A DNA stretch of 54,406 nt from a virus (IMGVR_UViG_3300020043_000644:1-54406); one strand, 5' to 3'. Shown: positions 25,329 through 53,776, counted from the first letter of the stretch. The notes: a model not told the origin generated them from the sequence alone. Made by a program: numbers and translations.

Positions 25329-27380
25329 TTAATCGTATGAATCCGTTTCCCACCAGTCTGGATACTCATTGGGACCTACATAAGAATAGCTGTCAAGATT
25401 ATTGCCAATACCAAATAAACTATCCCATGTGCCAGCTATGGTACTCTTAGCAAGATCGTATCCACCCTTAATAATATCACCAAAGATAGAAGCACCTGTA
25501 GAGCCTGCTGTTGTACCACCAAGAATAGTAGCAGCTGCCTTACCAATGGTTTCAGTCAGTGCTGCATCCTTTGCCATAGCAGCTGCAAGTACTGTAGCGT
25601 TAGATGAAATCTCTTGTCTTGTAATTTGATTGATACGATCCGCTGCATTATCTGCAGACTTCCATGAGTATTCAATCTCATCACGGAACTGTTGCCATAC
25701 GTTATTATACTCTATGGTTGTTAATTCCATAGCCTTCGTAGCATTAAATTCATTAGCACGATTTGTAGCTGCAGTATTAGCAGTAGCAATCTCTCTACGC
25801 CACTGAGCATTAGACTGGTCAATAACTAAACGATTCTGAGCATTGAATTGGTCACGCTGGTTCTGCACCTCAGCATTAAATCTAGACACAGTGTTAGCCT
25901 GATCGGTATTAAACTGTGACATTGCATTAGTCTGCTGGGCATTAAACTGATTTACTTGGCTAGTTAAATTAGAAAAGAATTGATCAGCCTGATTCTGACT
26001 AGTTGCATTAAACTGTCTTGATGCATTCTCTGCAGCTTGATCTGTCAATATACTTTGTACAATAGACTGTGACTTAAATAGTTCAGCCTGTTGTTCGTTC
26101 TGTAAGTTAGCCATATCCATCTGCAAGAAAGACTGGGCATTAACTACAGCAGCTTGCTGTCTATTGTTTAAGTTAGCTGTCTCTAAGTTAGCAATCTGAG
26201 CAGCCTCAGCCATTACAAGGGCTTGTCTATTACTTAAGTTAGCCAAGTCCATTGTCTGTGCTAGACGTGCATTCTCTAGGGCTACCTGTTGCTGTGCAGT
26301 AAAGTTCATGTTAGCAATGTCAGCTACACGAGCAGCATTAGTAACACGGGTTTGGAATGACTGATCAAACTCTTGACCTAAGAACTGGGCACGTTGCTGT
26401 GCAGTTAATACAGCTACCTGCTGACGATTGGATAAGTTCTGTAGACCCATCTGCTGGAATGCTTGAGCATCAGCACTAGCAATAGGTACAGCAGCCTCTA
26501 GGGTAGCTTGAATAATAGCTTGACCTGCTAGGCTAGATGCACCTAAACCACGAGCAGCCATCTGTGCTGTAGCATTACGTAAGGATGCAGCAGCCCATGA
26601 TGGAGGATTACCAGATTCAAAGCCAGCAGTTAATTTAGCTAACTGTCCTTGAACTGTCATGTCTTCTGTAACTACACCTTGAGCAGCTTCTGCTTTAGCT
26701 AGTGCATTTTCTACTTCAGTCATGTTAACAGCAGGACCACTGACCATCTCACCGACTTGTTCACCACGTACAGGTGCACCAGTTACTTGTCTAGTTAAAC
26801 CTTGAGCAGCATCTAACTGACCAACAGCAGTCTCAGTAGGCGTAGCCTGTGCAGCTTGTACTTGGGCTTGCTGTGATACAGTACCCTGTGCAGGTTGTAA
26901 CCCTTGAACTGCAGTAGTAATAGCAGGGGCAGCTTGCGTAGCTTGTGTAGTAGTTATTGGCTTGACAGTTGGAACAGCTGCGGATATAGTAGGCGTAGCA
27001 GCAGCAGCCGTAACTTGTGGTGCCTGTATTGGGGCTAATTCTGTTTTTATTGTCTGGTTATCTTCTGCCGTTGTAAGAGCAGGTTTTACACCAGACATCT
27101 GTGGTTTTACTGGTATAGTAAGTCCTTGCTTTTCTTCTTCCGTAGTTGAGGTAGTAGCAGTAGTAGTAGTCTGTTCTTCTGGGGCAGTGATAGTTCCACC
27201 CTCAGCCATGCCTTTAACCATACCACCACGAGCCATAAACTTGTCTGTAATCAAACCAAACTTCCTAGCATCGTTAGGACTAGACTTTAGATACTCATCG
27301 AACATTTGCATAGGACCATCATAGCCCATCCTACGAGCGATTACTTCCCGTTGTTTTTCTGTAAATGTTTTATCTGCCAT
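25329..27380 (-). CDS. Q/A/N-rich internal virion (DNA pilot-like) protein
   Basis: Long QFNA-type coiled-coil repeats; MARGG/MAEGG near the N-terminus; ATG at 27380 preferred over TTG 27389. Confidence 0.65.
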   Translation of the reverse strand: MADKTFTEKQREVIARRMGYDGPMQMFDEYLKSSPNDARKFGLITDKFMARGGMVKGMAEGGTITAPEEQTTTTATTSTTEEEKQGLTIPVKPQMSGVKPALTTAEDNQTIKTELAPIQAPQVTAAAATPTISAAVPTVKPITTTQATQAAPAITTAVQGLQPAQGTVSQQAQVQAAQATPTETAVGQLDAAQGLTRQVTGAPVRGEQVGEMVSGPAVNMTEVENALAKAEAAQGVVTEDMTVQGQLAKLTAGFESGNPPSWAAASLRNATAQMAARGLGASSLAGQAIIQATLEAAVPIASADAQAFQQMGLQNLSNRQQVAVLTAQQRAQFLGQEFDQSFQTRVTNAARVADIANMNFTAQQQVALENARLAQTMDLANLSNRQALVMAEAAQIANLETANLNNRQQAAVVNAQSFLQMDMANLQNEQQAELFKSQSIVQSILTDQAAENASRQFNATSQNQADQFFSNLTSQVNQFNAQQTNAMSQFNTDQANTVSRFNAEVQNQRDQFNAQNRLVIDQSNAQWRREIATANTAATNRANEFNATKAMELTTIEYNNVWQQFRDEIEYSWKSADNAADRINQITRQEISSNATVLAAAMAKDAALTETIGKAAATILGGTTAGSTGASIFGDIIKGGYDLAKSTIAGTWDSLFGIGNNLDSYSYVGPNEYPDWWETDSYD

Positions 27381-27409
27381 ATTATGCAACCCTTACTTAT
27401 AATTGATTA

Positions 27410-27883
27410 TCATGAAAGGTATAACGCTCTTTCATCTTTTCGTCTAGTGGTAAGACCTTTTAATTCTTTACCACCTGCCTTATTCCACTTTAAGAATTCA
27501 TCGGCAGCTGCTTCGTATTCACCTCGGTTATGCTTCATCCGAAGGGTAGAATTTTGGAGATTACCAAGTCCAACATTGAAGGCGAATGATACAAGTGCAC
27601 CAAAGCGACCAGTATTAAGACCAGTAGGACATAGTCTTCGTACACCACTTTCAAATCTTTCCAAATCTTTAGCAAGAATTTCATTGACCTCATCCCCACT
27701 TAATATTCTATCCCAACCTGCAGGAATTGGCAATGCTTTTCTTTCTGCCAATGGTACCCTAGCATGATTAGGATCTATTACATGCCCTACCCCGACAGTC
27801 CATAAAAGTGCAGGGCATTGGTATGGTTTTGTCTTAAAACCTTCATGATGCACGATAAGATCTAATACTTTTTTATCTAACAT
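27410..27883 (-). CDS. GH24 lysozyme (endolysin)
   Basis: E-x8-C-x5-T triad (HEGF...QC...WTVGVGH), ALVSFAFNVG, GLTTRRKDE. Confidence 0.9.
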   Translation of the reverse strand: MLDKKVLDLIVHHEGFKTKPYQCPALLWTVGVGHVIDPNHARVPLAERKALPIPAGWDRILSGDEVNEILAKDLERFESGVRRLCPTGLNTGRFGALVSFAFNVGLGNLQNSTLRMKHNRGEYEAAADEFLKWNKAGGKELKGLTTRRKDERALYLS

Positions 27884-28368
27884 TACTTCTTAGCGAATGC
27901 TTGGGTACCAAACCAGAAGGCAATAATTGAGGCAAGGATCTGCATCTCATCTGCATCAAATACCATAGGGATAGCCTCGGCAAATGCTGCACCGCTAGAC
28001 CATGCCCACCAGATAGAAGCTATATCAACTATGATTAATAATAATACAAATAGGTAGGTAACTACAGGACGTACAGAAGCCCGTAGATTAATAATCCATT
28101 GGCTTGCACCCTTACCAATCTCAATGTCATGCTGGTACATAGCTGTACGTTCTTGTGCCTGCGTTTGCATCTGCACTTGATCTGTACGAATCTCTTCGAT
28201 TCTAGCCTGAGCAGCATAGCCACGCTCTAGCATCTGGAGTTCTCTGTCCATCTGCATACGAGCAAGTTCTAGTTCATGTGACTTATCCGATCTGTCTTGG
28301 AAGAAGTCTAGTAGTTTAGGTAGTCCACCCATTAGGAAGGACAAAGCAGTTGATATTAGTGTGAACAT
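27883..28368 (-). CDS. holin (three-TM, GTA-holin-like)
   Basis: RASVRP..TY, IIAFWFG; directly upstream of the endolysin. Confidence 0.7.
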   Translation of the reverse strand: MFTLISTALSFLMGGLPKLLDFFQDRSDKSHELELARMQMDRELQMLERGYAAQARIEEIRTDQVQMQTQAQERTAMYQHDIEIGKGASQWIINLRASVRPVVTYLFVLLLIIVDIASIWWAWSSGAAFAEAIPMVFDADEMQILASIIAFWFGTQAFAKK

Positions 28369-28371
28369 TAT

Positions 28372-28824
28372 TTACCCTTTATGACCCCAAGTAAGGTACC
28401 AAGCAATGACTGCAGCCACTGCATAGCACATGAACATTGCTCTACGACTCTTTGCCAGATCTTGCTTAAACTCTCGATTAAGTTCATTGTCCTGTTTCTC
28501 TATCTTTTGTTTAATGGATTCGATTTCACCCCAGCGTTTACTGCCATGCCTCTTAATGAAATCAGCTTTTACTTTTGCTTCTTCAACACGAATGGTTTCT
28601 TGTCGTTGCCACTCTATCATTGCTCGTTTAAAGTATTGCTCTTTAAAGACCTGTGCTTCTCTTATCTGTCTTCTACGCTCTAGGTCTTTCTGCTGGGCTG
28701 CTGATGCAGCTTCCTTCTGTACATCGGTAATACTCTTTGTAATAGAATGACTAGCCTCACGACTAGCATCCATACTACTTGTTACAGACTTTGCTCCTTC
28801 TATAAATCCAAATTGATCTGACAT
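28372..28824 (-). CDS. coiled-coil protein with C-terminal TM helix (lysis module)
   Basis: Charged coiled coil plus hydrophobic C-terminus. Confidence 0.6.
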   Translation of the reverse strand: MSDQFGFIEGAKSVTSSMDASREASHSITKSITDVQKEAASAAQQKDLERRRQIREAQVFKEQYFKRAMIEWQRQETIRVEEAKVKADFIKRHGSKRWGEIESIKQKIEKQDNELNREFKQDLAKSRRAMFMCYAVAAVIAWYLTWGHKG

Positions 28825-28832
28825 ACATAGGC

Positions 28833-29778: not shown

Positions 29779-29788
29779 ATTCTATCTC

Positions 29789-36779: not shown

Positions 36780-38759
36780 CTATCGTCTATCGTAAGTCGA
36801 ATATTCTAAAGTTGCAGCGTCAAGTGAGAATGCAGGATCTGTACTCTCAGACACAAACTGTAAAGAAACTGTAAAGCCAGAACCTACTACCTGTGTCTGG
36901 AATAATTTCTTTAATTTGGTTCCATACCGAACAGTTCCATAAGTAGCTGTAGACGAACCATAAAAGCCTACGGCACCTGTTTGATTTGATAATGTTATGG
37001 TGTCAGGTTGTATCACACCTTCATCGTCAAAGTCAAGTTTTAAATTCACAGAAGTTGTTACACTTCCCTGTGGATCCGTATATAAGAAAAGCTTATAAAA
37101 TGCCTTACGAATACGTGGATCTTCCATCGGTACAAATGGGGTAGAGAAGGTAGCAATAATGTTATCACCGTTAAAGCTATTGCCTTTCTCCATCTCATAT
37201 ACATAACCATCTGTATGAGAGAACACAACAGTCTCTACCCTACCGTAATAGTCACTGTCTGCTACGTATGCTTTAATACCTCGTAGTTCAGCCCAAGAGA
37301 TTGTGCCAGTCTGGTCACCAATCGTCTGTGTTCCTAGTACACCTACAGCATTTTGTGTAGTAACATTAGCATTATATCCAAAGATACGATACTGTGACTT
37401 CTCTCGTATTACAACACTAGAGAAAGATGTACTCGATCCAATAAAAGCAGTCATCTCACTCTGAATAAACTTAGATACCACTGCCAAGGAGTAGTCACCA
37501 AACTTATCTGTACCACTCAAAAGTCTTAGACCGTCAGGACCTAAGAACATTACATCTGATCCAACCTCTTGGATTGTATCTGTATCTACGCAACCAACAT
37601 TTAAAGTAATAGGTTGCAATACAAAATCAGCTACTGTGTTACCAACTAACCTACTAATCTTTTGCTGGCTAAATATAATAAGCTGTTCACGGAATACAAT
37701 TAAACCAGTGATAGCATTACCAACACTTATAACACCAGATCCATTTGCTGGATTAAAGTCATTGTCTGTATAGGGAGAAGTAAAAGTTAACTTGTCACCC
37801 TTAGCAAAGAACAATTGATTCTTAAACCACACTACATGATCTGCACCTACAACATCATTTGGTGCTGAATGTAATTCTGTGAAAGATGTATCATCATATA
37901 GAAACGGTACATTGACACTATCTACACCGCATATCTTTTCTGTGGTACCAATACGATACTTTTCAAACCTGTACTTAGTTGCTGCATCTCGTGCTGCAGA
38001 TAAGAAAGTAATTGCAGCATTGTCAGCAGGACTAGAGGCTAGTGCTGGATTAATCGCTAATGTCGCACCGCCACTGGTTACTGTTGCATCGGCAGTGACT
38101 GTATACACAAGTTCAACACCAGCAATACTAAATGTGTCACCTGTCTTTGGTGTAGAGGTTAATCCATCTACAACAAGACTAGAGCCAGTCTGACCAGCAC
38201 CATTAACTAATACAGTTCCATATGCTGGTGCACTAATCTTTGTCCAGCCACTGCCTGTACTTCTGTATAAACTATTATTACGTGCAGCAATTACCTTACC
38301 AGTCCATGCTGCTACACCTTGAATCGTACCAGTACCTGATGTAAAAGTAATAACAGCTTTATCAGCAGGGCTAGATGCTAGACTGGTTGTTAGTGTTAGT
38401 GTTGCTCTTTTAGTACCAGAGCTATATGACACACCGCCAGTAGCAATCGTATATGTTCCAGCTACACCTGCAATAGTAAATGTATCACCTTCTAATGGTG
38501 ACGCTATTAAGTTGGCTATGATTAGGGTAGTACCTGTCTGCCCACTGCCATGAACTCTAGCATCACCATACGCTGGGACAATGGCACTGTCGTATTTATC
38601 AAAGCCATCAATGCGTCTGTAACCACCCTCAATGGATGGTTCAAAGTTTCTTAACACCCTAGCACTGCCCGGAAACTGAATACCAAGCTGCAAAGGTGAT
38701 AGATTTGTAATTAGCCCACCCTTAAACTCGAATGGGTAGGTCTGCCATCTATCAGCCAT
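36780..38759 (-). CDS. tail tubular protein B / nozzle
   Basis: GGYRRIDG, beta-propeller-like body, position after tube A; two internal Ig-like inserts. Confidence 0.7.
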   Translation of the reverse strand: MADRWQTYPFEFKGGLITNLSPLQLGIQFPGSARVLRNFEPSIEGGYRRIDGFDKYDSAIVPAYGDARVHGSGQTGTTLIIANLIASPLEGDTFTIAGVAGTYTIATGGVSYSSGTKRATLTLTTSLASSPADKAVITFTSGTGTIQGVAAWTGKVIAARNNSLYRSTGSGWTKISAPAYGTVLVNGAGQTGSSLVVDGLTSTPKTGDTFSIAGVELVYTVTADATVTSGGATLAINPALASSPADNAAITFLSAARDAATKYRFEKYRIGTTEKICGVDSVNVPFLYDDTSFTELHSAPNDVVGADHVVWFKNQLFFAKGDKLTFTSPYTDNDFNPANGSGVISVGNAITGLIVFREQLIIFSQQKISRLVGNTVADFVLQPITLNVGCVDTDTIQEVGSDVMFLGPDGLRLLSGTDKFGDYSLAVVSKFIQSEMTAFIGSSTSFSSVVIREKSQYRIFGYNANVTTQNAVGVLGTQTIGDQTGTISWAELRGIKAYVADSDYYGRVETVVFSHTDGYVYEMEKGNSFNGDNIIATFSTPFVPMEDPRIRKAFYKLFLYTDPQGSVTTSVNLKLDFDDEGVIQPDTITLSNQTGAVGFYGSSTATYGTVRYGTKLKKLFQTQVVGSGFTVSLQFVSESTDPAFSLDAATLEYSTYDRR

Positions 38760-39481
38760 TAATTAACCCTAAAGCCTGCTGTATATCTTTTGTTTTGTGG
38801 AAGCATTGTAGAGCGAACATATTCAGTACGATTAACTAACATGATCCTCATATGCTTTAGATTCTGTTCAAACTTTGCTTTTGCTAATGCTGCGTCTTGT
38901 GCATTACCTCTGAACATATACGCATAGTATGTAGCACCTTCAACAATCACATGCCGATACATCTCTGGAATTAGAGGAGCATCTGAATACGCAGACAAGT
39001 CAGTAGTTACTGTGTAGTACTCATACGTAAGTTCGTATGCTTCTTTAGGTGTCTGCACTAATACAAACTGTCTATTAGGTGCCTGTACAATAAAAGAAGG
39101 AATATCTCGTAAGCTTGTATCTGCATTATATTCTTGATCTACAAACTTCTCTAAGTACTCTTCGTAAGACAGAATCTTTAATTTAACTGTCTCATTATTA
39201 AACGTAGTATTCTTCCTAATACGAAAAGAATCGAAGTCAATTACTTTCGCATTAGCAGGATAACTATACCGGCTAGTGCCGGCAGTTAGTGTAGTTGTTT
39301 GGGTTGTGTGATTCCAATGCCATTGAAACTCTAGCTGATTAATGTCCTGAATAGCTGCATTAACTGCATCTTTAGCATGCGAGTAAAATCCTCTAGCACT
39401 ATCAAAGTTAGAGCTTGTAAGTTCTACTTCATTTAATTTTCTATTGATGTCGTTAACTAGACCTAGGAAATTGTAAGCCAC
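38759..39481 (-). CDS. tail tubular protein A / adaptor
   Basis: FL.LVN...LNEV, P.IPE.YRHVIV.GA; GTG start. Confidence 0.7.
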   Translation of the reverse strand: MAYNFLGLVNDINRKLNEVELTSSNFDSARGFYSHAKDAVNAAIQDINQLEFQWHWNHTTQTTTLTAGTSRYSYPANAKVIDFDSFRIRKNTTFNNETVKLKILSYEEYLEKFVDQEYNADTSLRDIPSFIVQAPNRQFVLVQTPKEAYELTYEYYTVTTDLSAYSDAPLIPEMYRHVIVEGATYYAYMFRGNAQDAALAKAKFEQNLKHMRIMLVNRTEYVRSTMLPQNKRYTAGFRVN

Positions 39482-41224: not shown

Positions 41225-41779
41225 CTAAGGTATAAGGGCTAACTCTGTAGGGTAGTCCTTGATACTATTGTTTTGAGCTACATAATGACAAAGCTGAATA
41301 AACAATTGCTCTGAATACTCTTGCTTCATCTTATTAATAGCAGCACAGACTAATTGAATGTTGCCAACAATGTAGCCTTTACCACTATCAATTCGATCTA
41401 GGCTTACGGTATTAAACTGGTTGGATGTTGCAAGCATCGGCAGCTTAGTATAAGCACAAAGACCTTTTTGTATACCCCAAAGATTTTGTAAATCAATCTC
41501 TGAAATATTAAATTCTTTATTTTTTCTTTGTCTTGCATTAGTACATAAATTTTTTAATCTTGAATCTATGTCCCTAGTAAACTTTGGTGTATACGTTTTA
41601 CTATAGCAATTTACTCTTGTTTTTATATCTTCTTTATTTCTAAGGTAGTAGTGCTTTGAACTGATCCTTGCACATTTTTTACATTCACCACCTACCCCGT
41701 ACTTTTTTGTTTTGTCTTTATTAAAATTTAATATTAACTTTTCAATACCACAAGTACGGCATTTCTTTAATTGTTCCAT
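41225..41779 (-). CDS. HNH-like homing endonuclease with N-terminal zinc ribbon
   Basis: CRTC...CKKC; SLDRIDSGKGY..GNIQLVC..INKMK; AT-rich insert between scaffold and MCP. Confidence 0.75.
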   Translation of the reverse strand: MEQLKKCRTCGIEKLILNFNKDKTKKYGVGGECKKCARISSKHYYLRNKEDIKTRVNCYSKTYTPKFTRDIDSRLKNLCTNARQRKNKEFNISEIDLQNLWGIQKGLCAYTKLPMLATSNQFNTVSLDRIDSGKGYIVGNIQLVCAAINKMKQEYSEQLFIQLCHYVAQNNSIKDYPTELALIP

Positions 41780-42846: not shown

Positions 42847-44109
42847 TTATATCTTAGATGCCAGCCCCTTACTAGCAGTCTTCTTAGGTTTAGTCACTTT
42901 CTTGCGAGGAGCAAGCAGTGGTTTTTTACTGTATTTTACCATGTTAGTACTAATAAGTCCACCCTCAGCTGCACCGATTGTTTCTACTTCTTTGTATCCT
43001 TCAGGAATAGGTGCCTGTGGTTCATCATCTTTAAATGAAATCATTGTGGTTTTACCAGCGTCATTTTGGAATTTACGCAATTCATATTTAGACTGGGCAA
43101 CAGAAGTTAATGCTACTTTATTATCTGTATCCATACTGCCAGTAACTTCATCTTCTCCAGAATAAGTACCGTATGGAGCACTCCTACGCTGTACTAAAGT
43201 AGTAGTTGGAATTGGAGGAGGAGTGTACATACTGTCCAGTATCTCTCCAGAAATTGCTTTAGTTGCTATTTTTTTACCTGTTTTTTCTATTCCGTATTCT
43301 GTTGATGGGGGAGGTTTATATAATTCATTAGCACCATAGGATCCTACTAAGTTCTGCGACACTGCCTGTTCTCCTATGCCACTAGCAGTCATACGAGCAA
43401 TGTCTGCTGCAGCTTGTGGCTGCATTCCTTCTTGCTTTAGTATCATCTCAATCTGTTCTGCACCTGCTCCACTTACTCTGGCAGCTTCTGCTTGTGCTGC
43501 TGCAAAGTCTGCGTCTGCTTGTAAGTTAGGGGTGTAAGTATTGCCAATACCAAATTCATTCTTAACTAAATTGTATCCCTCAGATACGGCACCACCAACA
43601 CCGCCTACAACACCGCCAACAACTGCACCTTTAGTGGTACCCTCTAAGATATCTTTGCCCCTTACTCCTGCTGTGATACCCCCAGTTACACCACCAACTG
43701 TAGCACCAGTAATTGCCGATGTTGCAATTTTACCTGCCGTAGGTCCTAAGAATTCAACAGCAGAAGGTCCAACTTCAGTACCAATCATTGGAGCTAGTTC
43801 TGCACCGATATACGCAGTACCAAAAGATAACGCAATATCTTCAAGGCTACCCCCCTTTACAGCCGTATTAGCAGCAGCAATGTAAGGTATGAGATAGTAT
43901 TGTTGAGTTACAACAGCAGCAGCCGTAGCAATCGTTCCCGGATCTACTTGCTGTATTACTGCTTCATCAAAATCAGCAAGTGCATCACCAATAACTGGAC
44001 CCGGATCTATGTTGGCTAATTGTTCACCAGCACCTTCCGTCCAGTTGTCTGCTTTGTCAATTGCATTATCGACAAATGGTACTCCTGTTGGTCCTCCACC
44101 ACTACACAT
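42847..44109 (-). CDS. Gly/Ala-rich internal virion protein starting MCSGGG
   Basis: Glycine-zipper hydrophobic segments; follows a GNAT gene; AAEGG and KGLAS near the C-terminus. Confidence 0.6.
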   Translation of the reverse strand: MCSGGGPTGVPFVDNAIDKADNWTEGAGEQLANIDPGPVIGDALADFDEAVIQQVDPGTIATAAAVVTQQYYLIPYIAAANTAVKGGSLEDIALSFGTAYIGAELAPMIGTEVGPSAVEFLGPTAGKIATSAITGATVGGVTGGITAGVRGKDILEGTTKGAVVGGVVGGVGGAVSEGYNLVKNEFGIGNTYTPNLQADADFAAAQAEAARVSGAGAEQIEMILKQEGMQPQAAADIARMTASGIGEQAVSQNLVGSYGANELYKPPPSTEYGIEKTGKKIATKAISGEILDSMYTPPPIPTTTLVQRRSAPYGTYSGEDEVTGSMDTDNKVALTSVAQSKYELRKFQNDAGKTTMISFKDDEPQAPIPEGYKEVETIGAAEGGLISTNMVKYSKKPLLAPRKKVTKPKKTASKGLASKI

Positions 44110-44118: not shown

Positions 44119-44559
44119 TTATAAGCTTTTAACGCTATTAAACCCGCCAGTTCTATATCCGTTATGAATAAAAAACTTTCTAGTTTGCTCTATCTTCCCG
44201 CCTACTGTGTGACCCATATATAATTCTTTAACACCAGTACTTCTAGCCCAGTCTTCTAAAGCACGTAACAGTAAGAATGCTGCTCGTCCCCCTCTATACT
44301 CTGGCAATATATAAAACCCTAAGTCTGTTGCTCTTTCATAATCAGAAAAAAAGAAAGGTCCTACAAAGCCACCGATAAAACCAATACAGACATCGTCTTT
44401 ATAAGCTAAGAACCCAGCACTTTTGGGGTATTCAAATAATGCTTGTATCTTTTTTCTTGATGGTTTAGCGTGTGAAAATACACTCTCTTCTACCATCTGC
44501 TCTATTAAACTAAACAACAAGTCTAAGTGTTGTTGTTCTACTCTTATTATTTTTATCAT
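44119..44559 (-). CDS. GNAT-family acyl/acetyltransferase
   Basis: FYILPEYRGG.AA..LL..LE.WA; FF...GY. Confidence 0.8.
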   Translation of the reverse strand: MIKIIRVEQQHLDLLFSLIEQMVEESVFSHAKPSRKKIQALFEYPKSAGFLAYKDDVCIGFIGGFVGPFFFSDYERATDLGFYILPEYRGGRAAFLLLRALEDWARSTGVKELYMGHTVGGKIEQTRKFFIHNGYRTGGFNSVKSL

Positions 44560-44562
44560 GTA

Positions 44563-46092
44563 TTACTGTATATCTAACGTCCAACCCTTTTCTGTTTCTT
44601 GTACGTCATAACCTAAACGAGTTAAAGGTTCGATATCTCCTTTGCTGTCAGACTCTAGTGTTTTAATTCCTGCTTTCTTAGCTACTTCAATACCAGTAGT
44701 AATAGCCTCATCTAGTTTCTCTGGAGTATCATTACTAAAGAAGAAAGGGTCTAATACACCGGGTCTCTTTACGAATCCAACAATAACAGTATCATTATGT
44801 CTAGTAGTAATTACCCGCTTAGCACGAGTTAGTTTTTCTACTTTCTGAATAAATTGATCTGCCTCTTGTTGTTTGTCTGGTCCAAAGTTGGCTTTAATAA
44901 TACTAGTAGGTGTCAGTCCTTCAGTGGGATTACTGGGAGGTAGAGAAGCTATCTCAGGTTCCTTTTCCTTCATTCTATTTGCAGTCTCATTAATGTACTG
45001 CATTTGCTCTGGAGTTAGTTCAGGTACTTTAGACGCAGCATCTTCCTGTGTCATGCCCTCTGGCATAGCCATACCACCCACTTGCATTTTAATTAAACTG
45101 TTACTACGTTGCTTAGCCGCTTCTACTGCTTCTTCTAAAGTATTGTGTGTGCTTGTTGGTTTAATTTTACCAGAAGCTAACATGTCTTCAATTTCATCTT
45201 CTTCGTATTGAATACCGTCTTGAATACTTGGGACATTAACGTATCCATCTTTATAGGGAACAGTGATTGATTTTTCAGATACTATTTCCCCTTCAGCAGT
45301 TTTGTATAAAGGTCTTCCTGCCTCAGACATTTCACCAGTAGGCTCTCCCACTTTTTTACGAGCCATACCGCCTACTTGCATTTTTGTTTCTTCTTCACCC
45401 TCGCCTTCAATCTCTTCAAAGATTTCATCTAGCTGGGATTCAAACTCACCATCATCTTCTTCAGTAGCCTCGTCAGCATTACTCATCTGACCCATGTCTT
45501 CCATCTTCTTAAGACCTTCTTTGGCAGCCTGACGCATCATCATCAGACGCTCAAGACCAATGTATCGAACTACATCGGCAGGGAATACGAACTCACCCTC
45601 ACTTAATTTAGCAGGGATGTCATCACGTACTTCTTCTTTCATGGCACCAACAGGAACTTCATTACCACTTTCCTCGTCTACTGTGCCACCTTCTTGAAGC
45701 ATACCGCCCTCTTGAAGAAGTTTCTTAGTTTGTAGTTTTGCTTTCACAGCACCGCCTTTAGCCATACCTGCTTGTTCTTTAGTTATACCTGCCTCATCAG
45801 GATTTTTACCAGTTCGCTTCATATACTCTTCTTTCCATGCCGTAGGATGTTCTTTAGACTTTAACATCTCTCCTGTTTCGGGATTAGACGAACTCCAGTG
45901 ATATTTATTTTTATCGTAAGGATCTCTTTGTGGTCTTACGCCAGCCTTCCACGCAGAGCGATAATCATAGTCTTTGGTATTTAAGTCTGGCTCTTCCCCG
46001 TATTCTTTTACGTACTCTTTGAACCATTCAGTTTTTTTAATACCAGCTTGAAAATCTTGCTCTTCCTTATCCGCTTGATTTTGTTTCGGCAT
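44563..46092 (-). CDS. modular virion-associated protein with five xxxGG motifs and a DDIPAKLSEGEFV domain
   Basis: Directly downstream of the portal region; motif similar to the D.IPA.LS.GEFV segment of tape-measure proteins. Confidence 0.65.
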   Translation of the reverse strand: MPKQNQADKEEQDFQAGIKKTEWFKEYVKEYGEEPDLNTKDYDYRSAWKAGVRPQRDPYDKNKYHWSSSNPETGEMLKSKEHPTAWKEEYMKRTGKNPDEAGITKEQAGMAKGGAVKAKLQTKKLLQEGGMLQEGGTVDEESGNEVPVGAMKEEVRDDIPAKLSEGEFVFPADVVRYIGLERLMMMRQAAKEGLKKMEDMGQMSNADEATEEDDGEFESQLDEIFEEIEGEGEEETKMQVGGMARKKVGEPTGEMSEAGRPLYKTAEGEIVSEKSITVPYKDGYVNVPSIQDGIQYEEDEIEDMLASGKIKPTSTHNTLEEAVEAAKQRSNSLIKMQVGGMAMPEGMTQEDAASKVPELTPEQMQYINETANRMKEKEPEIASLPPSNPTEGLTPTSIIKANFGPDKQQEADQFIQKVEKLTRAKRVITTRHNDTVIVGFVKRPGVLDPFFFSNDTPEKLDEAITTGIEVAKKAGIKTLESDSKGDIEPLTRLGYDVQETEKGWTLDIQ

Positions 46093-46309
46093 TGACTTCG
46101 TCTCTCAAATGTTTAAGCTGTCTTAGTGCTGTAATCGCACCTTGGGCTTGGTATAAATTAACAGGCTCTACGGACTGTTCTAACTTCTTTTGCTGCAACT
46201 CAATATGGTAGTCAAGCATATCTGTAAATGCTTGCCACTGAGTATTAGTATTAACCCAGCCCTTGAGCTTGGGGAGGTACTGCTTGCTGTTGCTGTTGGG
46301 GTTGCTCAT
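46067..46309 (-). CDS. small conserved protein after the portal
   Basis: LY.AQG.I..LR.L..LRD; start re-placed at ATG 46309. Confidence 0.65.
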   Translation of the reverse strand: MSNPNSNSKQYLPKLKGWVNTNTQWQAFTDMLDYHIELQQKKLEQSVEPVNLYQAQGAITALRQLKHLRDEVNAETKSSG

Positions 46310-48359
46310 TACCTGTGAATCCTTGTTCTTGTGGTGTAGGTGCCATGCCAACACCAATGTTACCACCTCCAGTACCAGCAGTATCTGCTACACCGGGAAC
46401 TCCGGGAGCACCAGCAGCTGGAGCAGGTGGTTGACCTTGTTGCATTAGCACGGCTTGTCTTGCTGCTTCTTCAATGCTATTGGTTACCTTCTCAGGATCC
46501 AAATCCATTGCCTTAGCAATCTCCCTAATAATATACGGGAATTTAGCATAAGGTGCAAGTGCTGGACTGCTGGCAACTTGCAAGAACTGCATGAGTCTTT
46601 GGCTACGTACTTCGTTAGCCATGAGACTTTCAGTACCACGGGCTTTAACTTCTAAGTCACCCTTAATCTCAGAATCAAAATCAAACTGCATGTTAAAGCT
46701 AAAGAATGCTTCACCGATAGGACGTAACAAATAATCGTCTACGTTCTTGATAACGGTCTTAATACTACCAGATGCAGCATTCATTAACATGCTAATACCA
46801 CTAGCTGTACGACCTACACCAGATACACCAGTCTGCCCATGGGAGAATGATGGTAAGCCGGTAGCTTCGTCAGCTAATATACGAGCCTTGTCAAACAACT
46901 GTAGGTTCTCGTTGGATACGTTAGGAAACTTCGTACCAAAGATAGCCTGACCGGGAGCACCACCTTGTCTACGGAATACTTTTCCGGGATACACAGACAG
47001 GTCTTGACCGGGTACGAGATTGGTTTCATCCACCTCGAACACTAAATTGCCAGATAGGACGGCATTGTCTACCGCCATACGCATAAACCCATTCATTAAA
47101 GTTTGTGTGTCGTCCATGTTTTCTGCGACACCGATGCCAAAGAAAGAGTAGGGGTTTAGTTCGTAAGGGACAGCATAATACGGAATCCTAGCTGGCTTAA
47201 AAGGATTTAATACCATTCGCAAGATACGACCATTGCAATACCAAATGTTTGCCTGTAATTCATCGGCAGCATTTAATTCAGCAGGGACTTTAACTCCATT
47301 AGCTTCTAGTACATCACGCTCAACGGAACCCCAAAATTCTAATACTTCAAAGCGATCAATACCTTGATCTACTTGATAGTCATTTAAATCATCTTCCCAG
47401 TACTTCTTGGTATAAGACTCACCACGATTGATAACATCATCGATTACTTTAGAACGGAAGAATGGACGTTTCTTTAAAGCTCGCATTTGACTACGGCTCA
47501 TCTTGTGTCGCTCGATAATGTATTGAGCTTCGTCCATGTTAGATGCATCTGGATCTGGGTACAGATTCCAAACGCTTACATGAGATGTAGACGGTACAGT
47601 TTTAATGTTAGGAGAATACTCTCCATCGGTTGTCCAGTTTGCATATTCTTTATCTACAGCAAACGGACCTTTCATGATACCAGTACCGAAGAGTGCCATC
47701 TCAAATGCAGTAGATCTTAACTGCTTACTTGCATTGCTCTCATCTAACTGGTCTTTAATCTTCTTCTCCATCTTCTTAGCAGCAATCATTGCTGGGCTAA
47801 ATGTGACAGAGGTAGGAGTAATACCCGGACCTTCATTTAAATTTTGAATGCCAGATAACTCGTCTGTTAAAGGACCTAATCTATCTTGTAATGTTTTATA
47901 TGTAGCTCCGGGAGGTAGATTTTGTCCATCGCCTTTATATCCGTATGGAGAAAAGTCAGGAACAGCCTGACGTACATTTGCTTCGTTGGGATCAAAGCTA
48001 ACATCTTCAACAACACCTTCTGGTAGTACAGTAGGATCTACGCTAATGGGGAAATTATTATTGGAGAACAGTACATCTACAATTTGACCATAGGCTGCCA
48101 GTGTTTTAGTCTTGGTGACCTTGATAAACACACGGCTCTTCTCTGCCTCAGTAAACTGTACATCAGGACCATACAAGCCACGATAGTTACGATAGGCACG
48201 TAGCCATCTTTCTTCGTCATTGCGTCTTGTTGTCTCTGCTTTGTTGTACTTCTCCATTAATAACTGAACAATGGGAGCAGCTACAGGATCTTCCTCGTTG
48301 ATGTTGCTCACATCTTTTAAGTTAATGGACTCGTCTTCGATTAGGTTCTTATCTGCCAT
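46251..48359 (-). CDS. portal protein
   Basis: W..AYRNYRG, LFGTG..KGP, YPDP.A, FFG.G..E, RTASG.SML; follows terL. Confidence 0.9.
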   Translation of the reverse strand: MADKNLIEDESINLKDVSNINEEDPVAAPIVQLLMEKYNKAETTRRNDEERWLRAYRNYRGLYGPDVQFTEAEKSRVFIKVTKTKTLAAYGQIVDVLFSNNNFPISVDPTVLPEGVVEDVSFDPNEANVRQAVPDFSPYGYKGDGQNLPPGATYKTLQDRLGPLTDELSGIQNLNEGPGITPTSVTFSPAMIAAKKMEKKIKDQLDESNASKQLRSTAFEMALFGTGIMKGPFAVDKEYANWTTDGEYSPNIKTVPSTSHVSVWNLYPDPDASNMDEAQYIIERHKMSRSQMRALKKRPFFRSKVIDDVINRGESYTKKYWEDDLNDYQVDQGIDRFEVLEFWGSVERDVLEANGVKVPAELNAADELQANIWYCNGRILRMVLNPFKPARIPYYAVPYELNPYSFFGIGVAENMDDTQTLMNGFMRMAVDNAVLSGNLVFEVDETNLVPGQDLSVYPGKVFRRQGGAPGQAIFGTKFPNVSNENLQLFDKARILADEATGLPSFSHGQTGVSGVGRTASGISMLMNAASGSIKTVIKNVDDYLLRPIGEAFFSFNMQFDFDSEIKGDLEVKARGTESLMANEVRSQRLMQFLQVASSPALAPYAKFPYIIREIAKAMDLDPEKVTNSIEEAARQAVLMQQGQPPAPAAGAPGVPGVADTAGTGGGNIGVGMAPTPQEQGFTGNEQPQQQQQAVPPQAQGLG

Positions 48360-50241: not shown

Positions 50242-50245
50242 TCAC

Positions 50246-50617
50246 TTACTCCTCTATATCTTTTTCCTTGGGTGGAAGAATCATCAAACCATTGGTAGCT
50301 TCGACTTGTACTTTCTCAGTCTTGACTAAACCAACACGATCCAATAGATCCTTAGCAGCACTTAGTTTATCACGTAATCCTAGTTCTGTCGGGTCAACCA
50401 TACCACTGACAAGTGACATAGCTGCACGAGGAGCATTACGTGCCATATAAAGTTGGGTACGTTCCATGATCTCTTCTTTAAGTCCCTTGATGATATCGGT
50501 TGTTGGACTATTATCAGAGTACCCAGCCAATTCTTTTGCACGTACAACATCACCGCCTGCTTGTTCAAACAGGACCTCTAGAAACTTAACTTGCTTTTCA
50601 GTTAGTTCTCTACTCAT
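50246..50617 (-). CDS. terS: probable terminase small subunit
   Basis: LTEKQ..F...A..AGYS and AAKDLLDR.G; two genes upstream of terL. Confidence 0.65.
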   Translation of the reverse strand: MSRELTEKQVKFLEVLFEQAGGDVVRAKELAGYSDNSPTTDIIKGLKEEIMERTQLYMARNAPRAAMSLVSGMVDPTELGLRDKLSAAKDLLDRVGLVKTEKVQVEATNGLMILPPKEKDIEE

Positions 50618-50865
50618 TTTGTTTTCCTAAATGGTTTTACTTTTTTAGCAACAGCTTTCGGCTGTGCAACAAACTGTCTACCTTTTGCTGTGCCCACTCG
50701 TTTAGCTCTTGTCGTTGCTTCATATTCCGCAGGAGTAAGAGCTTTAATAGCAGCCTCTGGTAGATATCTTTCCCCTGTCTTGGAGCTTGGCTTTCCACTT
50801 TTGGTACGCCACTTTTGTTTGCCCCACGACTTAAGAGATAGCTGCGGTTTTTTAAGAGCACTCAC
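50614..50865 (-). CDS. small basic protein (DUF5872 C-terminal-half-like)
   Basis: W.KQKWRTKSGKPS..TGERYLP. Confidence 0.65.
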   Translation of the reverse strand: MSALKKPQLSLKSWGKQKWRTKSGKPSSKTGERYLPEAAIKALTPAEYEATTRAKRVGTAKGRQFVAQPKAVAKKVKPFRKTK

Positions 50866-51047
50866 TTATAACCCCCACCGGCAGCTTTATATTTCTTTGC
50901 CACTAGTTGTGCTTTTCTTGCTGACCACTGACCTGCGGCTGTTCCTTGTACTGCGGCAGCCTTTACCTGTGAGACTATCTTCTTACGCATCTCTGGCTTG
51001 GTATAGTTACCAGCAGCATTTACTTTTGATTTAGTTTTAGTAGCCAT
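50862..51047 (-). CDS. small basic protein (DUF5872 N-terminal-half-like)
   Basis: NYTKP..RK...GQWSARKAQ...YKAAGGGY. Confidence 0.65.
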   Translation of the reverse strand: MATKTKSKVNAAGNYTKPEMRKKIVSQVKAAAVQGTAAGQWSARKAQLVAKKYKAAGGGYK

Positions 51048-51050
51048 AGT

Positions 51051-51383
51051 TTATAGTGCCGTAGCAAAGTCCTCAAGTACTTTAAAGGTTACAGTAACGC
51101 TGGTATTAACATTTGCTAACGCTCTGATCTTATCGGTTGCAACTAAGTATATCGATTCTTCTATCTGGATTATTCCATTTGGTACTAGTGGCATATCCTT
51201 CATCAAATAACTCCATGTACTGTTCACAGAGTCGTAGTACTCCATCGATATTGTTCTCGGTGATGTAGTGGTATTTGTAATAAAAATACTAAATACTTCT
51301 GCATTCCAACGATCTGGTACTGTGTAAATATCTTGATTGCTGGTAGTCAAGACGGTACTAATTGTTCTGTTCTTAGTTGGCAT
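51051..51383 (-). CDS. small beta protein, paralog of 34749-35075
   Basis: IYTVP...NTTTSP...L.ATDKI; start re-placed at ATG 51383. Confidence 0.65.
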   Translation of the reverse strand: MPTKNRTISTVLTTSNQDIYTVPDRWNAEVFSIFITNTTTSPRTISMEYYDSVNSTWSYLMKDMPLVPNGIIQIEESIYLVATDKIRALANVNTSVTVTFKVLEDFATAL

Positions 51384-51384
51384 A

Positions 51385-52638
51385 TTATCGTGATACCTCT
51401 TCCCAGTCAAAGGAAGCATGGATTTGTGCACTATTGGTTGAAGCTGCTGCAATTAAAGTTAGTTCATACGGAGTGCTAGTCAATCCATTTCTTTCTAACT
51501 GATTTGCAAACAAAGCTGCTTTCAAAATATCAATGGTACTTGCCCCTTGATTTGATCCCTGTGTATAGCCAGATGCTAGTATCCTACCCCCAGTAAAAGA
51601 ACTACCAGTAAGATTATATTCAATGCCAGAGTTTGTCCCAGCACTAACCCAAGTTCCACCTGTCGTAGTTCCAGAAGCTACTACTCGCCATTCATAATTG
51701 ACGTTATTGGTAATGCCTAAAATAGAGGCAGCGGTTAAAATAACAATTGCGTCAAGCCTAGTGGTTTTGAGTCGCAATGAAATAATGGGGTAGAAAGTTC
51801 CTGCAGTAGCTAAAGAAGTAGGAGATGTTATTGGTGTGCCTATTGCTTGCTGCAGCCCACTTAAACTATATCCACCTTCTGAAATAACGGTAGAGCATAC
51901 TTGCTTGAGTTTACTTGCACTTGCTGTTACTGCCGTATTTTTAATCTCATACCGCAATGGTAAAGATGCAGTAGTAATATACGTAGTTGTTACTAAGTTA
52001 GCATGATCAAAATTATGGGCTGGAACAAAGGTCCCATTGATAACAAATCCCATACGTACCGTACCAAGACCTAACCACTCGATGTCCATGTACATGATCT
52101 GAGCCTTGGATAGATCCAGTGTTATGCCAGACGGTCCAGTGCCATCTAACTTATCCTGATTCCAGCTAGACTGAGCTACTTGCGTATTTGTTGTAGCTCC
52201 AGTCACAAGACTACGTTCTACTAAATAAACACTAGTTCCATCACGTTCTATGTAGTACCCGTTATCTGCTCCGTAGTATCCAACTCTCTGACGTAGTCCT
52301 GCCTTAGCAGTACCCATGACAAAGGTATTCATGACTAATAAACTTTTGCCGGGCTGATAAGAAAATATTTTAGTAGTCTCTCTTACCACCTCATCATTGT
52401 TTGCTGTCCCTACATCTAGGTCAACTAAACCTTCATTGGCTACAAATGTAGCACTTGCTGTCCCTGTGGTAGCAGTACTCCAAAGGTTATTATCTGAATA
52501 CCGATGAGAGGAATCAAATAAGGTAAAAGGCTCACAGATCCTTAGTCTACCAAATGCATCTACACTAGGTCCACCAAATGCAGTATAGACGGGTAGGTTA
52601 GGAGACTGCCCTCTGGCAGGGTAATACGTAATCGTCAT
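51385..52638 (-). CDS. Thr/Gly-rich probable structural protein
   Basis: DAFGRLR..P.TLFDS, YQPGKS, EWLG.G.VR, SEGG. Confidence 0.6.
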   Translation of the reverse strand: MTITYYPARGQSPNLPVYTAFGGPSVDAFGRLRICEPFTLFDSSHRYSDNNLWSTATTGTASATFVANEGLVDLDVGTANNDEVVRETTKIFSYQPGKSLLVMNTFVMGTAKAGLRQRVGYYGADNGYYIERDGTSVYLVERSLVTGATTNTQVAQSSWNQDKLDGTGPSGITLDLSKAQIMYMDIEWLGLGTVRMGFVINGTFVPAHNFDHANLVTTTYITTASLPLRYEIKNTAVTASASKLKQVCSTVISEGGYSLSGLQQAIGTPITSPTSLATAGTFYPIISLRLKTTRLDAIVILTAASILGITNNVNYEWRVVASGTTTGGTWVSAGTNSGIEYNLTGSSFTGGRILASGYTQGSNQGASTIDILKAALFANQLERNGLTSTPYELTLIAAASTNSAQIHASFDWEEVSR

Positions 52639-52641
52639 GGA

Positions 52642-53043
52642 TTACTTTTTCTTTCTAGCAACCGATAAGGCAATAGCAATCGCCTGCCCTTTATCTTTAA
52701 CTACCTTACCATTCTTGCCTGAGTGCAAAGACTTATCCTTAAACTCACCCATGACCTTACCTACTTTAGCAGTTTGCTTTTTAGACATACTCTTGCTTGC
52801 TGTCGCTACGCCACCCTGTGCCATCTTTTTTACTGGTTTAGCTTTTTTCACCATGCCACCTTTTCTGAGAGCAGTAGTTGGTGAATCTACAGATGCAGAT
52901 TTCTTTTTCATCAACTGCTGTTGTAAATCCATAATCTGTTTATTCAAACGGGCATCGGGTACAGATCTATCTGATGCCTGTACCTTAAGAGCAGTTAGCT
53001 GTCTAGTTAAAGACTCAATTTCTAATGCGTCTTTGGTTGCCAT
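52642..53043 (-). CDS. basic protein with C-terminal DUF6496-like domain and two xxxGG motifs
   Basis: KV.KVM.EFK...LHSG...QAIAIALS.AR. Confidence 0.7.
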   Translation of the reverse strand: MATKDALEIESLTRQLTALKVQASDRSVPDARLNKQIMDLQQQLMKKKSASVDSPTTALRKGGMVKKAKPVKKMAQGGVATASKSMSKKQTAKVGKVMGEFKDKSLHSGKNGKVVKDKGQAIAIALSVARKKK

Positions 53044-53046
53044 AGC

Positions 53047-53394
53047 TTACTTCTTCTTTGCTTTAGGGATACCAATCATAACGGCTAGGAAAGGAGCCTT
53101 ACCTGCTTTAGCAGCTTTAGAACCAGACTTAGTAACCTTACCACCAGCTGCCATCTTTTTAGCTAAACACTTGCCAGCAGCTTTGCACTTGGCAGGTGAC
53201 TTGCATTCGCTACAGGATTTGAATCCCTTCTTAACATCTCCACCCTTAGCCATCTTCTTCTCCTCTGCTTCTTTCTCTTTAGCCTTAGAAGCTTTGTATC
53301 TATCGTTATCTTCCTTGGCTTTCTTATTCTGCTCAGGGGTACCCATTACATTCTCATAGGCACGTTTAAAGATATTAGGATTTGTGCTTGGCAT
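53047..53394 (-). CDS. Lys-rich protein with a 4-Cys module flanked by MAxGG motifs
   Basis: MAKGGDV...CSECKSPAKCKAAGKC...MAAGGKV. Confidence 0.7.
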   Translation of the reverse strand: MPSTNPNIFKRAYENVMGTPEQNKKAKEDNDRYKASKAKEKEAEEKKMAKGGDVKKGFKSCSECKSPAKCKAAGKCLAKKMAAGGKVTKSGSKAAKAGKAPFLAVMIGIPKAKKK

Positions 53395-53395
53395 A

Positions 53396-53776
53396 TTACT
53401 TCTTCGCTTTCTGTGCTGGTTTCATGGAGGCACCACAGTTAGCCATACCACCTTTGTTGTATGCCATAGGTTTCTTCTTCTTAGCCATACCACCCTTACG
53501 CATATTCAACTCGTCTTGCAACTGCTTCTTCTCTTTCTCGGTAAGCTTACCTTTTGGAGCAGTCTTAGACTTACCCATAGCAGATGCATATGCCTCTTTA
53601 TCGGCAGCAGCTTCTTCTTCTTTGCTGAGCTTCTTGCTCTTCTCAATCTTTTGCTCTTTAGCGTACTCTTTCTGAGCAGCTAATGTGTCATCATCATAGC
53701 CGGGGGAGCCAGCCATCTTCTTTGCTGACTTGTCCATCTTTTCCAATTGCTTGGTTAGAAAACGTGCGATTGCCAT
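53396..53776 (-). CDS. Lys-rich protein with two xxKGG motifs
   Basis: MRKGGMA, YNKGGMA; AAGGA RBS. Confidence 0.7.
   Translation of the reverse strand: MAIARFLTKQLEKMDKSAKKMAGSPGYDDDTLAAQKEYAKEQKIEKSKKLSKEEEAAADKEAYASAMGKSKTAPKGKLTEKEKKQLQDELNMRKGGMAKKKKPMAYNKGGMANCGASMKPAQKAKK

What the first reader, a model, noticed from the sequence alone, without database searches (positions are those of the whole stretch)
27195..53503. Candidate di-glycine tagging/processing system: 14 copies of [MLY]-x-x-G-G-x-[VAIL] in six unrelated late proteins
Seen (low coordinate of each): MAEGGTI 27195, MARGGMV 27222, AAEGGLI 42958 (variant), MQVGGMA 45073 and 45367, LQEGGTV 45685, LQEGGML 45703, MAKGGAV 45751, MAQGGVA 52810, LRKGGMV 52855, MAAGGKV 53140, MAKGGDV 53239, YNKGGMA 53447, MRKGGMA 53489. 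They are usually paired, sit in low-complexity linkers, and bracket discrete modules such as the 4-Cys unit in 53047-53394. I saw no comparable set in the early arm. Known: adenovirus protease cuts (M/I/L)xGG-x, ASFV polyproteins are cut at GG-x, and ubiquitin-like proteins and bacteriocin leaders use Gly-Gly. Inference: a phage-wide signal for capsid loading, proteolytic maturation or ligation, read by the DDIPAKLSEGEFV domain (about 45586-45624), by ClpP or by a head protein. I am not aware of a characterised system like this in podoviruses.
Basis: partly seen in the sequence, partly recalled or inferred. Interest (0 to 1): 0.85.

Follow-up and report, generated by a model that had tools for sequence, protein, structure and literature searches.

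The report
Gly-Gly hook motif on ejected phage proteins
A short Gly-Gly motif repeated on several internal proteins of this marine podovirus is real and conserved, and it belongs to an old module also found near the cut end of tape measure proteins of long-tailed phages such as lambda and T5.

Summary
The window is an HMO-2011-type podovirus. Thirteen copies of [MLY]xxGGx[VAIL] plus one variant lie in six late proteins, against about 2.7 expected for the late proteome. The motif is kept in orthologs: 50 of 50 post-portal proteins in related viral contigs carry it, against 0 of 40 terminases, 0 of 44 scaffolds and 2 of 40 capsid proteins.

The new point is that the "SEGEFV domain" is not a folded reader. 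Together with its flanking GG motifs it is a module shared with the C-terminal region of tape measure proteins (TMPs): all five PHROG hits are TMP families, and it matches Nitrincola, Rhodococcus and Vibrio TMPs and, through them, lambda gpH. In T5 the mapped TMP cut lies two residues before such a GG motif. In lambda the last copy lies in the stretch modelled at the gpI plug.

The post-portal protein is therefore a TMP-like, polyvalent ejection protein, with the GG motif at each module boundary and on C-terminal tails. My best reading is a docking or tether peptide for ejected proteins (about 0.45). Processing sites are the main rival (about 0.25). No GG-type protease was found, and ClpP is not conserved in relatives.

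The parts
44563..46092 (-). Post-portal protein (509 aa). It is a TMP-like, polyvalent ejection protein carrying 5 motif copies (aa 110, 126, 132, 238, 336).
   Evidence: Its family has 3081 clusters at E<=0.001. All 5 PHROG hits to aa 100-250 are tape measure families.
45478..45624 (-). Core of the module (aa 157-205: DDIPAKLSEGEFV, then a helix with IG..L).
   Evidence: Invariant columns. It matches the Nitrincola TMP (profile E 5e-6) and TMPs. It is not globular.
45679..45765 (-). Three motif copies at fixed offsets upstream of the core (MAKGGAV, LQEGGML, LQEGGTV).
   Evidence: the same offsets (about -52, -38, -32) recur across the family.
45067..45381 (-). An inserted module of about 100 aa, bracketed by two MQVGGMA copies (45361-45381 and 45067-45087).
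   Evidence: close relative P0005 lacks the module and has a single copy.
42847..44109 (-). A 420-aa protein: the detached C-terminal half of the ancestral long post-portal protein. It has Gly/Ala-rich hydrophobic stretches and a degenerate C-terminal tail (AAEGGLI at 42952-42972, ending in KGLASKI).
   Evidence: Long relatives such as P0097 and P0118 carry this part fused.
44119..44559 (-). A GNAT acetyltransferase gene lying between the two halves.
   Evidence: An ortholog is found in 12 of the 50 related loci.
25329..27389 (-). A 686-aa protein with a conserved N-terminal stretch, a tandem motif pair (27216-27236 and 27189-27209; aa 52-67), and then a Q/N-rich domain.
   Evidence: The pair is kept at the same place in HMO-2011 gp25 and MW202701, and after an N-terminal extension in CRP-1 gp35.
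53396..53776 (-). A small Lys-rich protein (126 aa) with 2 motif copies in its C-terminal tail (53483-53503, 53441-53461).
   Evidence: 11 of 11 orthologs carry the motif; orthologs have 2 or 3 copies.
53047..53394 (-). A small Lys-rich protein (115 aa) with 2 motif copies (53233-53253, 53134-53154) bracketing a 4-Cys unit.
   Evidence: 11 of 16 orthologs; the 4-Cys unit is in 7 of 11 orthologs examined.
52642..53043 (-). A small protein (133 aa) with 2 motif copies (52849-52869, 52804-52824) ahead of a C-terminal DUF6496 domain.
   Evidence: 13 of 23 orthologs.
46251..48359 (-). Portal gene, immediately upstream of the post-portal protein. It is a candidate docking partner; this is inferred only.
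17430..17993 (+). ClpP gene in the early arm. It is not part of the system.
   Evidence: It is absent from the relatives' loci.

Best explanation
The motif is a short linear peptide under selection. Its consensus is hydrophobic (M>L>F,Y) - x - x - G - G - x - hydrophobic (V>A,L).

It is one half of an old two-part module. One or more GG 'hooks' flank a core of the form IPAxLSxGEFV..(8)..IG..L. The same module lies near the C-terminal end of tape measure proteins of long-tailed phages, including lambda gpH.

In HMO-2011-type podoviruses the module sits in the gene after the portal gene. That gene encodes a TMP-like, polyvalent protein, which I infer is carried in the virion and ejected. In this lineage the hook has been multiplied: there is one copy at each cargo-module boundary and one or two copies on C-terminal Lys-rich tails. 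It has also spread to several small basic proteins and to the 686-aa protein.

The most likely mechanism (inferred, not shown) is that each hook is a flexible docking or tether peptide. It would fit a repeated site in the DNA-exit path or inner virion (portal, adaptor, nozzle or a partner protein). Tagged modules would then be loaded, held and ejected together, in the way the C-terminal end of lambda gpH sits on the gpI plug.

Trimming next to some copies, as in T5 pb2, may occur in addition.
For: Selection and specificity:
- Enrichment over shuffles and synonymous differences between copies.
- Kept in orthologs at the same places.
- In 50 related loci the motif is in 50 of 50 post-portal orthologs (202 copies) and in 11 of 11, 11 of 16 and 13 of 23 orthologs of the three small proteins. 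It is in 0 of 40 TerL, 3 of 47 portal, 0 of 44 scaffold, 2 of 40 capsid, and 0 of 30 and 0 of 26 tail proteins.
- Further small carriers have 2-3 copies in a Lys-rich C-terminal tail.

Tag-like layout:
- In the 120 close family members listed, the motif recurs at the same offsets around the core and additional copies accompany additional modules.
- Indels carry one module plus one copy.
- 54 of 110 family members of at least 400 aa have a copy in the last 60 residues, often two copies about 16 aa apart with the last 3-5 residues from the end.
- In 301 distinct GG contexts, position -3 is M 134, L 57, F 18 and position +2 is V 139, A 40, L 30.

TMP link:
- All 5 PHROG hits to aa 100-250 are tape measure families, at the same profile positions as the Nitrincola TMP.
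- A profile of the core hits the Nitrincola TMP at E 5e-6 among 593 targets.
- The Nitrincola module aligns with lambda gpH 733-785 at 41% identity, pairwise E 1e-9.
- GG motifs next to the core are seen in lambda, Nitrincola, GuyFagieri, LV6 and PG28 TMPs.

Docking analogy:
- Lambda gpH 818-849, which holds the last copy (842-848), is modelled uncut in the tail tip on the gpI tripod (passages read in PMC10721106 and PMC12617516).

Cargo nature:
- Modules in 65 family members include tail lysozyme (2), LPD23 (2), methyltransferase (3), HNH (2) and LysM (1). One of the 28 members whose sequences were read (P0108) was listed with ART-PolyVal among the precomputed Pfam domains of the 120 rows.
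Against: - No partner has been identified.
- No virion proteomics for this phage group was found, so even virion residence of the carriers is inferred from gene position and family.
- Lambda gpH is not a significant hit to the podoviral profile directly (E 1.2; hhalign E 0.0027, probability 11%). That link rests on the Nitrincola intermediate and on shared PHROG families.
- The residue-level contacts of the lambda motif with gpI were not inspected.
- The only mapped events next to such a motif are cuts: T5 after R1127, and lambda in the Gly-rich stretch. That favours the processing rival.
- Tandem copies 6-9 residues apart are odd for a one-site docking peptide.
Confidence: 0.45

Rival explanations
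1. The motifs are processing sites. The post-portal protein would be a polyprotein whose modules are cut apart at or next to each motif, by a host protease or an unrecognised phage protease, during assembly or after ejection. This would parallel gpH to gpH* + gpHC in lambda and pb2 to pb2* + pb2C in T5.
For: - There is a beads-on-a-string layout with one motif per module boundary.
- The T5 TMP is cut after R1127 (PMC10038345, passage read). In my translation that is two residues before an AEGGMM motif, which precedes a GE..E.V.P stretch.
[quoted passage not shown] The first motif copy is at 733.
- In motif numbering the T5 cut falls after position -3. In the podoviral motif that position is M/L/F/Y, a set typical of P1 residues of chymotrypsin-like or Clp-type peptidases; that comparison is my recall.
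Against: - No protease family was found in the window proteins scanned: Pfam on about 35 proteins and PHROGs on 30 late proteins. Most early genes were not scanned.
- ClpP is not conserved in relatives.
- No peptidase domain was found in 65 family members.
- Copies 3-5 residues from the C-terminus and tandem copies 6-18 aa apart would release only tiny peptides.
- Separately encoded small proteins keep the motif.
- The last lambda copy is uncut in virions, and only one cut is known in lambda and in T5.
Confidence: 0.25
2. The motif is structural punctuation only. It would be a helix stop or turn and a flexible hinge between modules, with no specific partner and no cut.
For: - Many copies follow helix-prone K/E/A-rich stretches.
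- In the AlphaFold2 model a helix ends exactly at the GG of the second copy.
- In lambda the coiled coil 818-842 ends at the M of the last copy.
Against: - A hinge would not need M at -3 and V at +2 kept across thousands of clusters.
- It would not be expected to occur as tandem copies 6 residues apart or as the last 10 residues of proteins.
- It would not be expected to co-occur with the core element across phage groups.
Confidence: 0.15
3. The motif is a recombination junction. Short conserved DNA at module borders would let modules be shuffled, and the peptide would be a by-product.
For: - Module indels are bounded by duplicated copies.
- The two MQVGGMA copies in the window share 22 of 24 bases.
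Against: - Copies differ at synonymous positions, and only about 9 of 21 bases are fixed by the peptide.
- The motif also stands on single-module proteins and at extreme C-termini.
- It is conserved as a peptide between phages of Proteobacteria and Actinobacteria.
Confidence: 0.05
4. The Met of the motif marks internal translation starts, so that modules are also made as separate nested proteins.
For: - Met is the commonest residue at -3.
- One copy (53233) is preceded by GAGGAG.
Against: A 5-mer Shine-Dalgarno word upstream is as rare for 121 motif Mets (3%) as for 1034 other internal Mets (3%), against 32% for 488 ORF starts.
Confidence: 0.02

Closest known systems
C-terminal region of tape measure proteins (lambda gpH / gpHC, T5 pb2 / pb2C, and TMPs of Nitrincola, Rhodococcus and Vibrio phages)
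   Same: - They share the two-part module: GG motif(s) next to a core of the form ..LSxGEFV..IG..L.
- The host protein is long, has Gly/Ala-rich hydrophobic stretches and sometimes wall-degrading domains, and is ejected ahead of the DNA.
- The last motif copy is close to the C-terminus.
   Different: - This is a podovirus with no long tail, and the gene follows the portal gene.
- The motif is multiplied (5 copies here, up to 7-8 in relatives) and also stands on other proteins.
- The variable cargo modules are of the polyvalent-protein kind.
- No Pfam family covers the module. Tape_meas_lam_C covers gpH 627-701 only.
Polyvalent proteins and MuF-type minor head proteins (Iyer et al. 2017; Jamet et al. 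2017; both recalled, not read here)
   Same: - The gene lies next to the portal gene.
- A conserved anchor is joined to highly variable effector modules.
- LPD23 is found in 2 of 65 members, and ART-PolyVal was listed for one of the 120 rows.
   Different: No MuF domain is present. The anchor is the TMP-type module, and the borders carry a repeated GG motif.
T4 capsid targeting sequence and encapsulin cargo-loading peptides (recalled)
   Same: They are short, portable peptides that send diverse cargo into an HK97-fold shell. Encapsulin peptides are usually C-terminal, rich in small residues and have hydrophobic anchors.
   Different: - The T4 sequence is N-terminal and is removed by the prohead protease.
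- No prohead protease is present here.
- The receptor is unknown.
- The TMP link argues that the ancestral partner was not the capsid shell.
Adenovirus protease sites (M/I/L)xGG-x, ASFV GG-x sites, Ubl and bacteriocin double-glycine signals
   Same: A Gly-Gly with a hydrophobic residue upstream.
   Different: - The spacing differs (hydrophobic-x-x-GG, not hydrophobic-x-GG).
- A conserved hydrophobic residue also lies downstream.
- No matching protease, beta-grasp domain or C39/ABC exporter was found.

Membership tests
TMP-type GG + GEFV module | Sequence similarity of the core to tape measure proteins | tested here: met
   - Five of 5 PHROG hits are TMP families, E 6e-4 to 0.04.
- The profile hits the Nitrincola TMP at E 5e-6.
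- tblastn hits TMPs of 5 phages in 6 database records.
- Lambda gpH is linked only through Nitrincola (E 1e-9) and shared PHROGs. Directly it gives E 1.2.
TMP-type GG + GEFV module | Hydrophobic-xx-GG-x-hydrophobic motif next to the core | tested here: met
   - Both sides in the window and its family.
- Both sides in lambda, Nitrincola and GuyFagieri.
- Downstream copy clear, upstream copy degenerate, in LV6 and PG28.
- Upstream only in T5.
Tape measure protein (as a protein class) | Encoded in a long-tail gene cluster, between the tail chaperones and the tip genes, with length matching the tail | tested here: not met
   The gene follows the portal gene in a podovirus map, and the family's lengths range from 130 to 1600 aa. 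It works like, or descends from, a TMP end, but it is not a TMP.
Tape measure protein (as a protein class) | Proteolytic release of a C-terminal fragment | not testable with these tools
   Known for lambda and T5 only.
Adenain-type or other GG-directed protease system | Site consensus (M/I/L)xGG-x with the hydrophobic residue at P4 | tested here: not met
   The hydrophobic residue is three, not two, residues before GG in 13 of 13 window copies and in the family.
Adenain-type or other GG-directed protease system | A cognate cysteine, JAB or C39 protease encoded nearby | tested here: not met
   - None was found by Pfam or PHROGs among the scanned window proteins or in 65 family members.
- Most early genes were not scanned.
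- Lambda does have JAB + NlpC/P60 gpK (PMC1779556, passages read).
Polyvalent proteins | Many unrelated effector or LPD domains in one virion-delivered protein | tested here: inconclusive
   LPD23 in 2 of 65, MTase in 3, HNH in 2, lysozyme in 2. ART-PolyVal was listed for one of 120 rows. Most modules have no Pfam family, and delivery is not shown.
Encapsulin-like cargo-loading peptide | The peptide binds the inner face of the HK97-fold shell protein | not tested

The most novel reading that the evidence does not exclude
The GG hook is a portable address label that began as part of the tape-measure C-terminal module. Any module or small protein that carries it would be loaded into the virion's ejection train and delivered into the host. 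HMO-2011-type phages, among the most abundant marine viruses, would then swap tagged cargo cassettes freely. The same hook would mark the long-unmapped cleavage and anchoring region of lambda gpH.
Probability: 0.3. Interest if true: 0.8.

Novelty: new variant of a known kind. Interest (0 to 1): 0.62.

Why it matters
How podoviruses choose and load the proteins they inject is largely unknown. The T4 targeting sequence is the main model.

A simple, countable peptide tag on swappable cargo modules, in a phage group that dominates marine viromes, would give a handle for predicting injected proteins from sequence alone. It would also allow tagged reporters to be loaded.

The link to tape measure proteins ties podoviral internal proteins to the ends of siphoviral TMPs. 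It also points to specific residues in lambda gpH (motif copies at 733, 779 and 842) for testing two questions that PMC12617516 states are still open: where gpH is cut and how.

Tried and rejected
Complex prediction. I submitted three copies of aa 100-250 of the post-portal protein with the motif tail (aa 70-125) of the 126-aa protein. The result was no verdict (score 0.00; the mark is 0.32). It is evidence neither for nor against binding. Portal, capsid and scaffold partners could not be tried because only one job was allowed.

Monomer fold of aa 100-250. Confidence was low and no globular domain appeared, so no fold search was run.

Searches that found nothing:
- A profile search of solved structures.
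- Pfam at E up to 10 on the core and the small proteins, apart from DUF6496.
- The protein atlas gave only unnamed viral clusters, a weak crAss cargo lead (0.83) and a 'tape measure' structural row. It gave nothing for the 126-aa protein.

The lambda gpH database search returned only near-identical E. coli prophage proteins and gave no diversity for a TMP profile.

Ideas rejected:
- Chance or composition.
- A DNA-level repeat.
- Internal translation starts.
- ClpP as reader.
- An acylation site: Lys at -1 is not constant.
- A DNA-binding hook: copies also sit in acidic stretches.

T7 gp6.7, gp7.3 and gp13 have GG near their ends, but with different spacing, so I do not count them as the same motif.

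Papers. No description of this motif was found by searches, or in the passages read in PMC9038755, PMC4819975 and PMC10386132. T5 fig.

Full report
**What the window is.** Genes on the plus strand up to 19715 are early genes (replication, RNR, ClpP). Genes on the minus strand from 54080 down to 19969 are late genes. In transcription order the late genes are:
- small basic proteins and a virion structural protein;
- TerS and TerL;
- portal (46251-48359);
- a 509-aa protein, a GNAT, a 420-aa protein, and a scaffold-like 292-aa protein;
- an endonuclease and the P22-type capsid protein;
- an SU10-type adaptor, tail tube and fibres, and the endolysin;
- a 686-aa protein followed by proteins of 75, 161, 427 and 1116 aa.

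The nearest named phages are Puniceispirillum phage HMO-2011 and the Roseobacter CRP phages.

**The observation.**
- The late proteome has 14 matches against about 2.7 expected. The early proteome has 1 match against 0.84 expected.
- In the five carriers, 13 of 15 GG dipeptides are in the motif.
- Copies differ at synonymous sites.

**Conservation.**
- HMO-2011, CRP-1, the freshwater contig MW202701 and pelagiphage HTVC115P carry the motif in the corresponding proteins. In the three HMO-2011-type genomes the tandem pair is near the N-terminus of the homolog of the 686-aa protein (behind an N-terminal extension in CRP-1); HTVC115P gp47 has none there. In MW202701 and HTVC115P a copy lies near the C-terminal end of a giant internal protein.
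- In 50 related viral contigs the motif is in 50 of 50 post-portal orthologs. It is in 11 of 11, 11 of 16 and 13 of 23 orthologs of the small proteins.
- It is practically absent from terminase, portal, scaffold, capsid and tail proteins.
- Other small proteins in those contigs consist of one helix plus a Lys-rich tail with 2-3 copies.

**Layout.**
- The post-portal family is very large: 4190 of 4370 candidates at E<=0.001, and 3081 clusters at 50% identity.
- Only about 100 residues are conserved (60-85% identity). Everything else varies, and lengths run from 130 to 1600 aa.
- The motif stands at fixed offsets around the core and at module borders. Modules come and go together with one copy.
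- In 54 of 110 long members a copy, often a pair, lies in the last 60 residues within a basic tail.
- Cargo modules include lysozyme, LysM, methyltransferase, HNH, LPD23 and ART-PolyVal. No peptidase was found.

**The tape measure link.**
- AlphaFold2 does not fold aa 100-250 into a domain.
- tblastn with the core hits tape measure proteins of five siphoviruses in six records.
- The module in the Nitrincola TMP and in lambda gpH (733-790) has the same order: GG motif, core, GG motif. A further copy lies at the very end of gpH. GuyFagieri, LV6 and PG28 show the same arrangement.
- The statistics are as follows: profile against Nitrincola E 5e-6; Nitrincola against gpH E 1e-9; all five PHROG hits are TMP families, at the profile positions hit by Nitrincola.
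- The direct link to gpH is weak.
- Pfam has no family for this stretch.

**What is known there.**
- Lambda gpH is cut in its Gly-rich C-terminal region into gpH* and gpHC. The site and the enzyme are unknown (PMC12617516, passages read).
- gpH 818-849 is modelled on the gpI tripod (PMC10721106). By my translation that stretch includes the last motif copy.
- T5 pb2 is cut after R1127 (PMC10038345), two residues before a GG motif.
- The lambda tail genes include the JAB + NlpC/P60 protein gpK (PMC1779556). I found no counterpart in this window.

**Reading.**
- Shown: the motif is real and selected. It is specific to a set of late proteins, is part of a TMP-type module, and is arranged as a per-module and C-terminal tag.
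- Inferred: the carriers are internal, ejected proteins, and the motif docks them to a repeated site.
- The main rival is processing next to the motif, which the T5 and lambda precedents keep alive.
- phiM6 and RHph_N3_19 share the capsid, the portal and a homolog of the 686-aa protein (phiM6 also the scaffold), but lack both the core and the motif. The two features therefore travel together.

**Limits.**
- There are no proteomics for this phage group.
- The one complex job gave no verdict.
- Most early genes were not scanned for proteases.

Noticed in passing
window 17430-17993 (+): A ClpP gene sits in the early arm between the two ribonucleotide reductase genes. No ClpP was found in the loci held for HMO-2011, CRP-1, HTVC115P, MW202701, phiM6 or CHOED.
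   Followed up: partly
window 44119-44559 (-); L007 21405-21854; L064 1972-2454: Acyl/acetyltransferase genes recur beside these proteins. There is a GNAT between the two halves of the post-portal gene here (an ortholog is in 12 of 50 loci). HTVC115P has a gene annotated as 'toxin-activating lysine-acyltransferase'. RHph_TM3_14A has an 'N-acyltransferase' directly upstream of its core-bearing protein. This could mean that ejected proteins are acylated.
   Followed up: no
window 41225-41779 (-): An endonuclease VII/HNH-like gene is inserted between the scaffold and capsid genes. An ortholog is present in 10 of 50 related loci, which looks like a mobile endonuclease.
   Followed up: no
L062 (T5) pb2 residues 1125-1150: The published T5 TMP cut (after R1127) lies two residues before an AEGGMM motif. 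The stretch called a Zn-carboxypeptidase motif in T5 papers follows that motif, in the place where the core follows it in the module; I did not align the two.
   Followed up: partly
L009 (T7) gp6.7, gp7.3, gp13: These small T7 proteins have Gly-Gly near their C-termini (for example ..FGGKK at the end of gp6.7 and ..KGG at the end of gp13). Two of them, gp6.7 and gp7.3, I recall as ejected (the record notes injection only for gp6.7). The spacing differs from the motif here.
   Followed up: partly
window 50614-51047 and 53811-54080 (-): Three further small basic proteins (83, 61 and 89 aa) were seen; the 83- and 61-aa ones are conserved in HMO-2011 and HTVC115P. They lack the motif in 0 of 24, 0 of 22 and 0 of 20 orthologs.
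   Followed up: partly
window 53047-53394 (-) and orthologs: The 4-Cys unit (C-x2-C-x6-C-x5-C) is present in 7 of 11 orthologs between two motif copies. It is lost together with the motif copy that follows it in 3. In two contigs (L036, L046) it stands without flanking motifs.
   Followed up: partly
alignment A4 (orthologs of window 53396-53776): The number of motif units in the tail varies between 2 and 3 among close orthologs, through indels of about 11 residues.
   Followed up: yes
window 46251-48359 and 38759-39481 (-): The portal and adaptor match the Pfam families built on phage SU10. The solved SU10 virion could therefore serve as a structural template for this head-tail junction.
   Followed up: no
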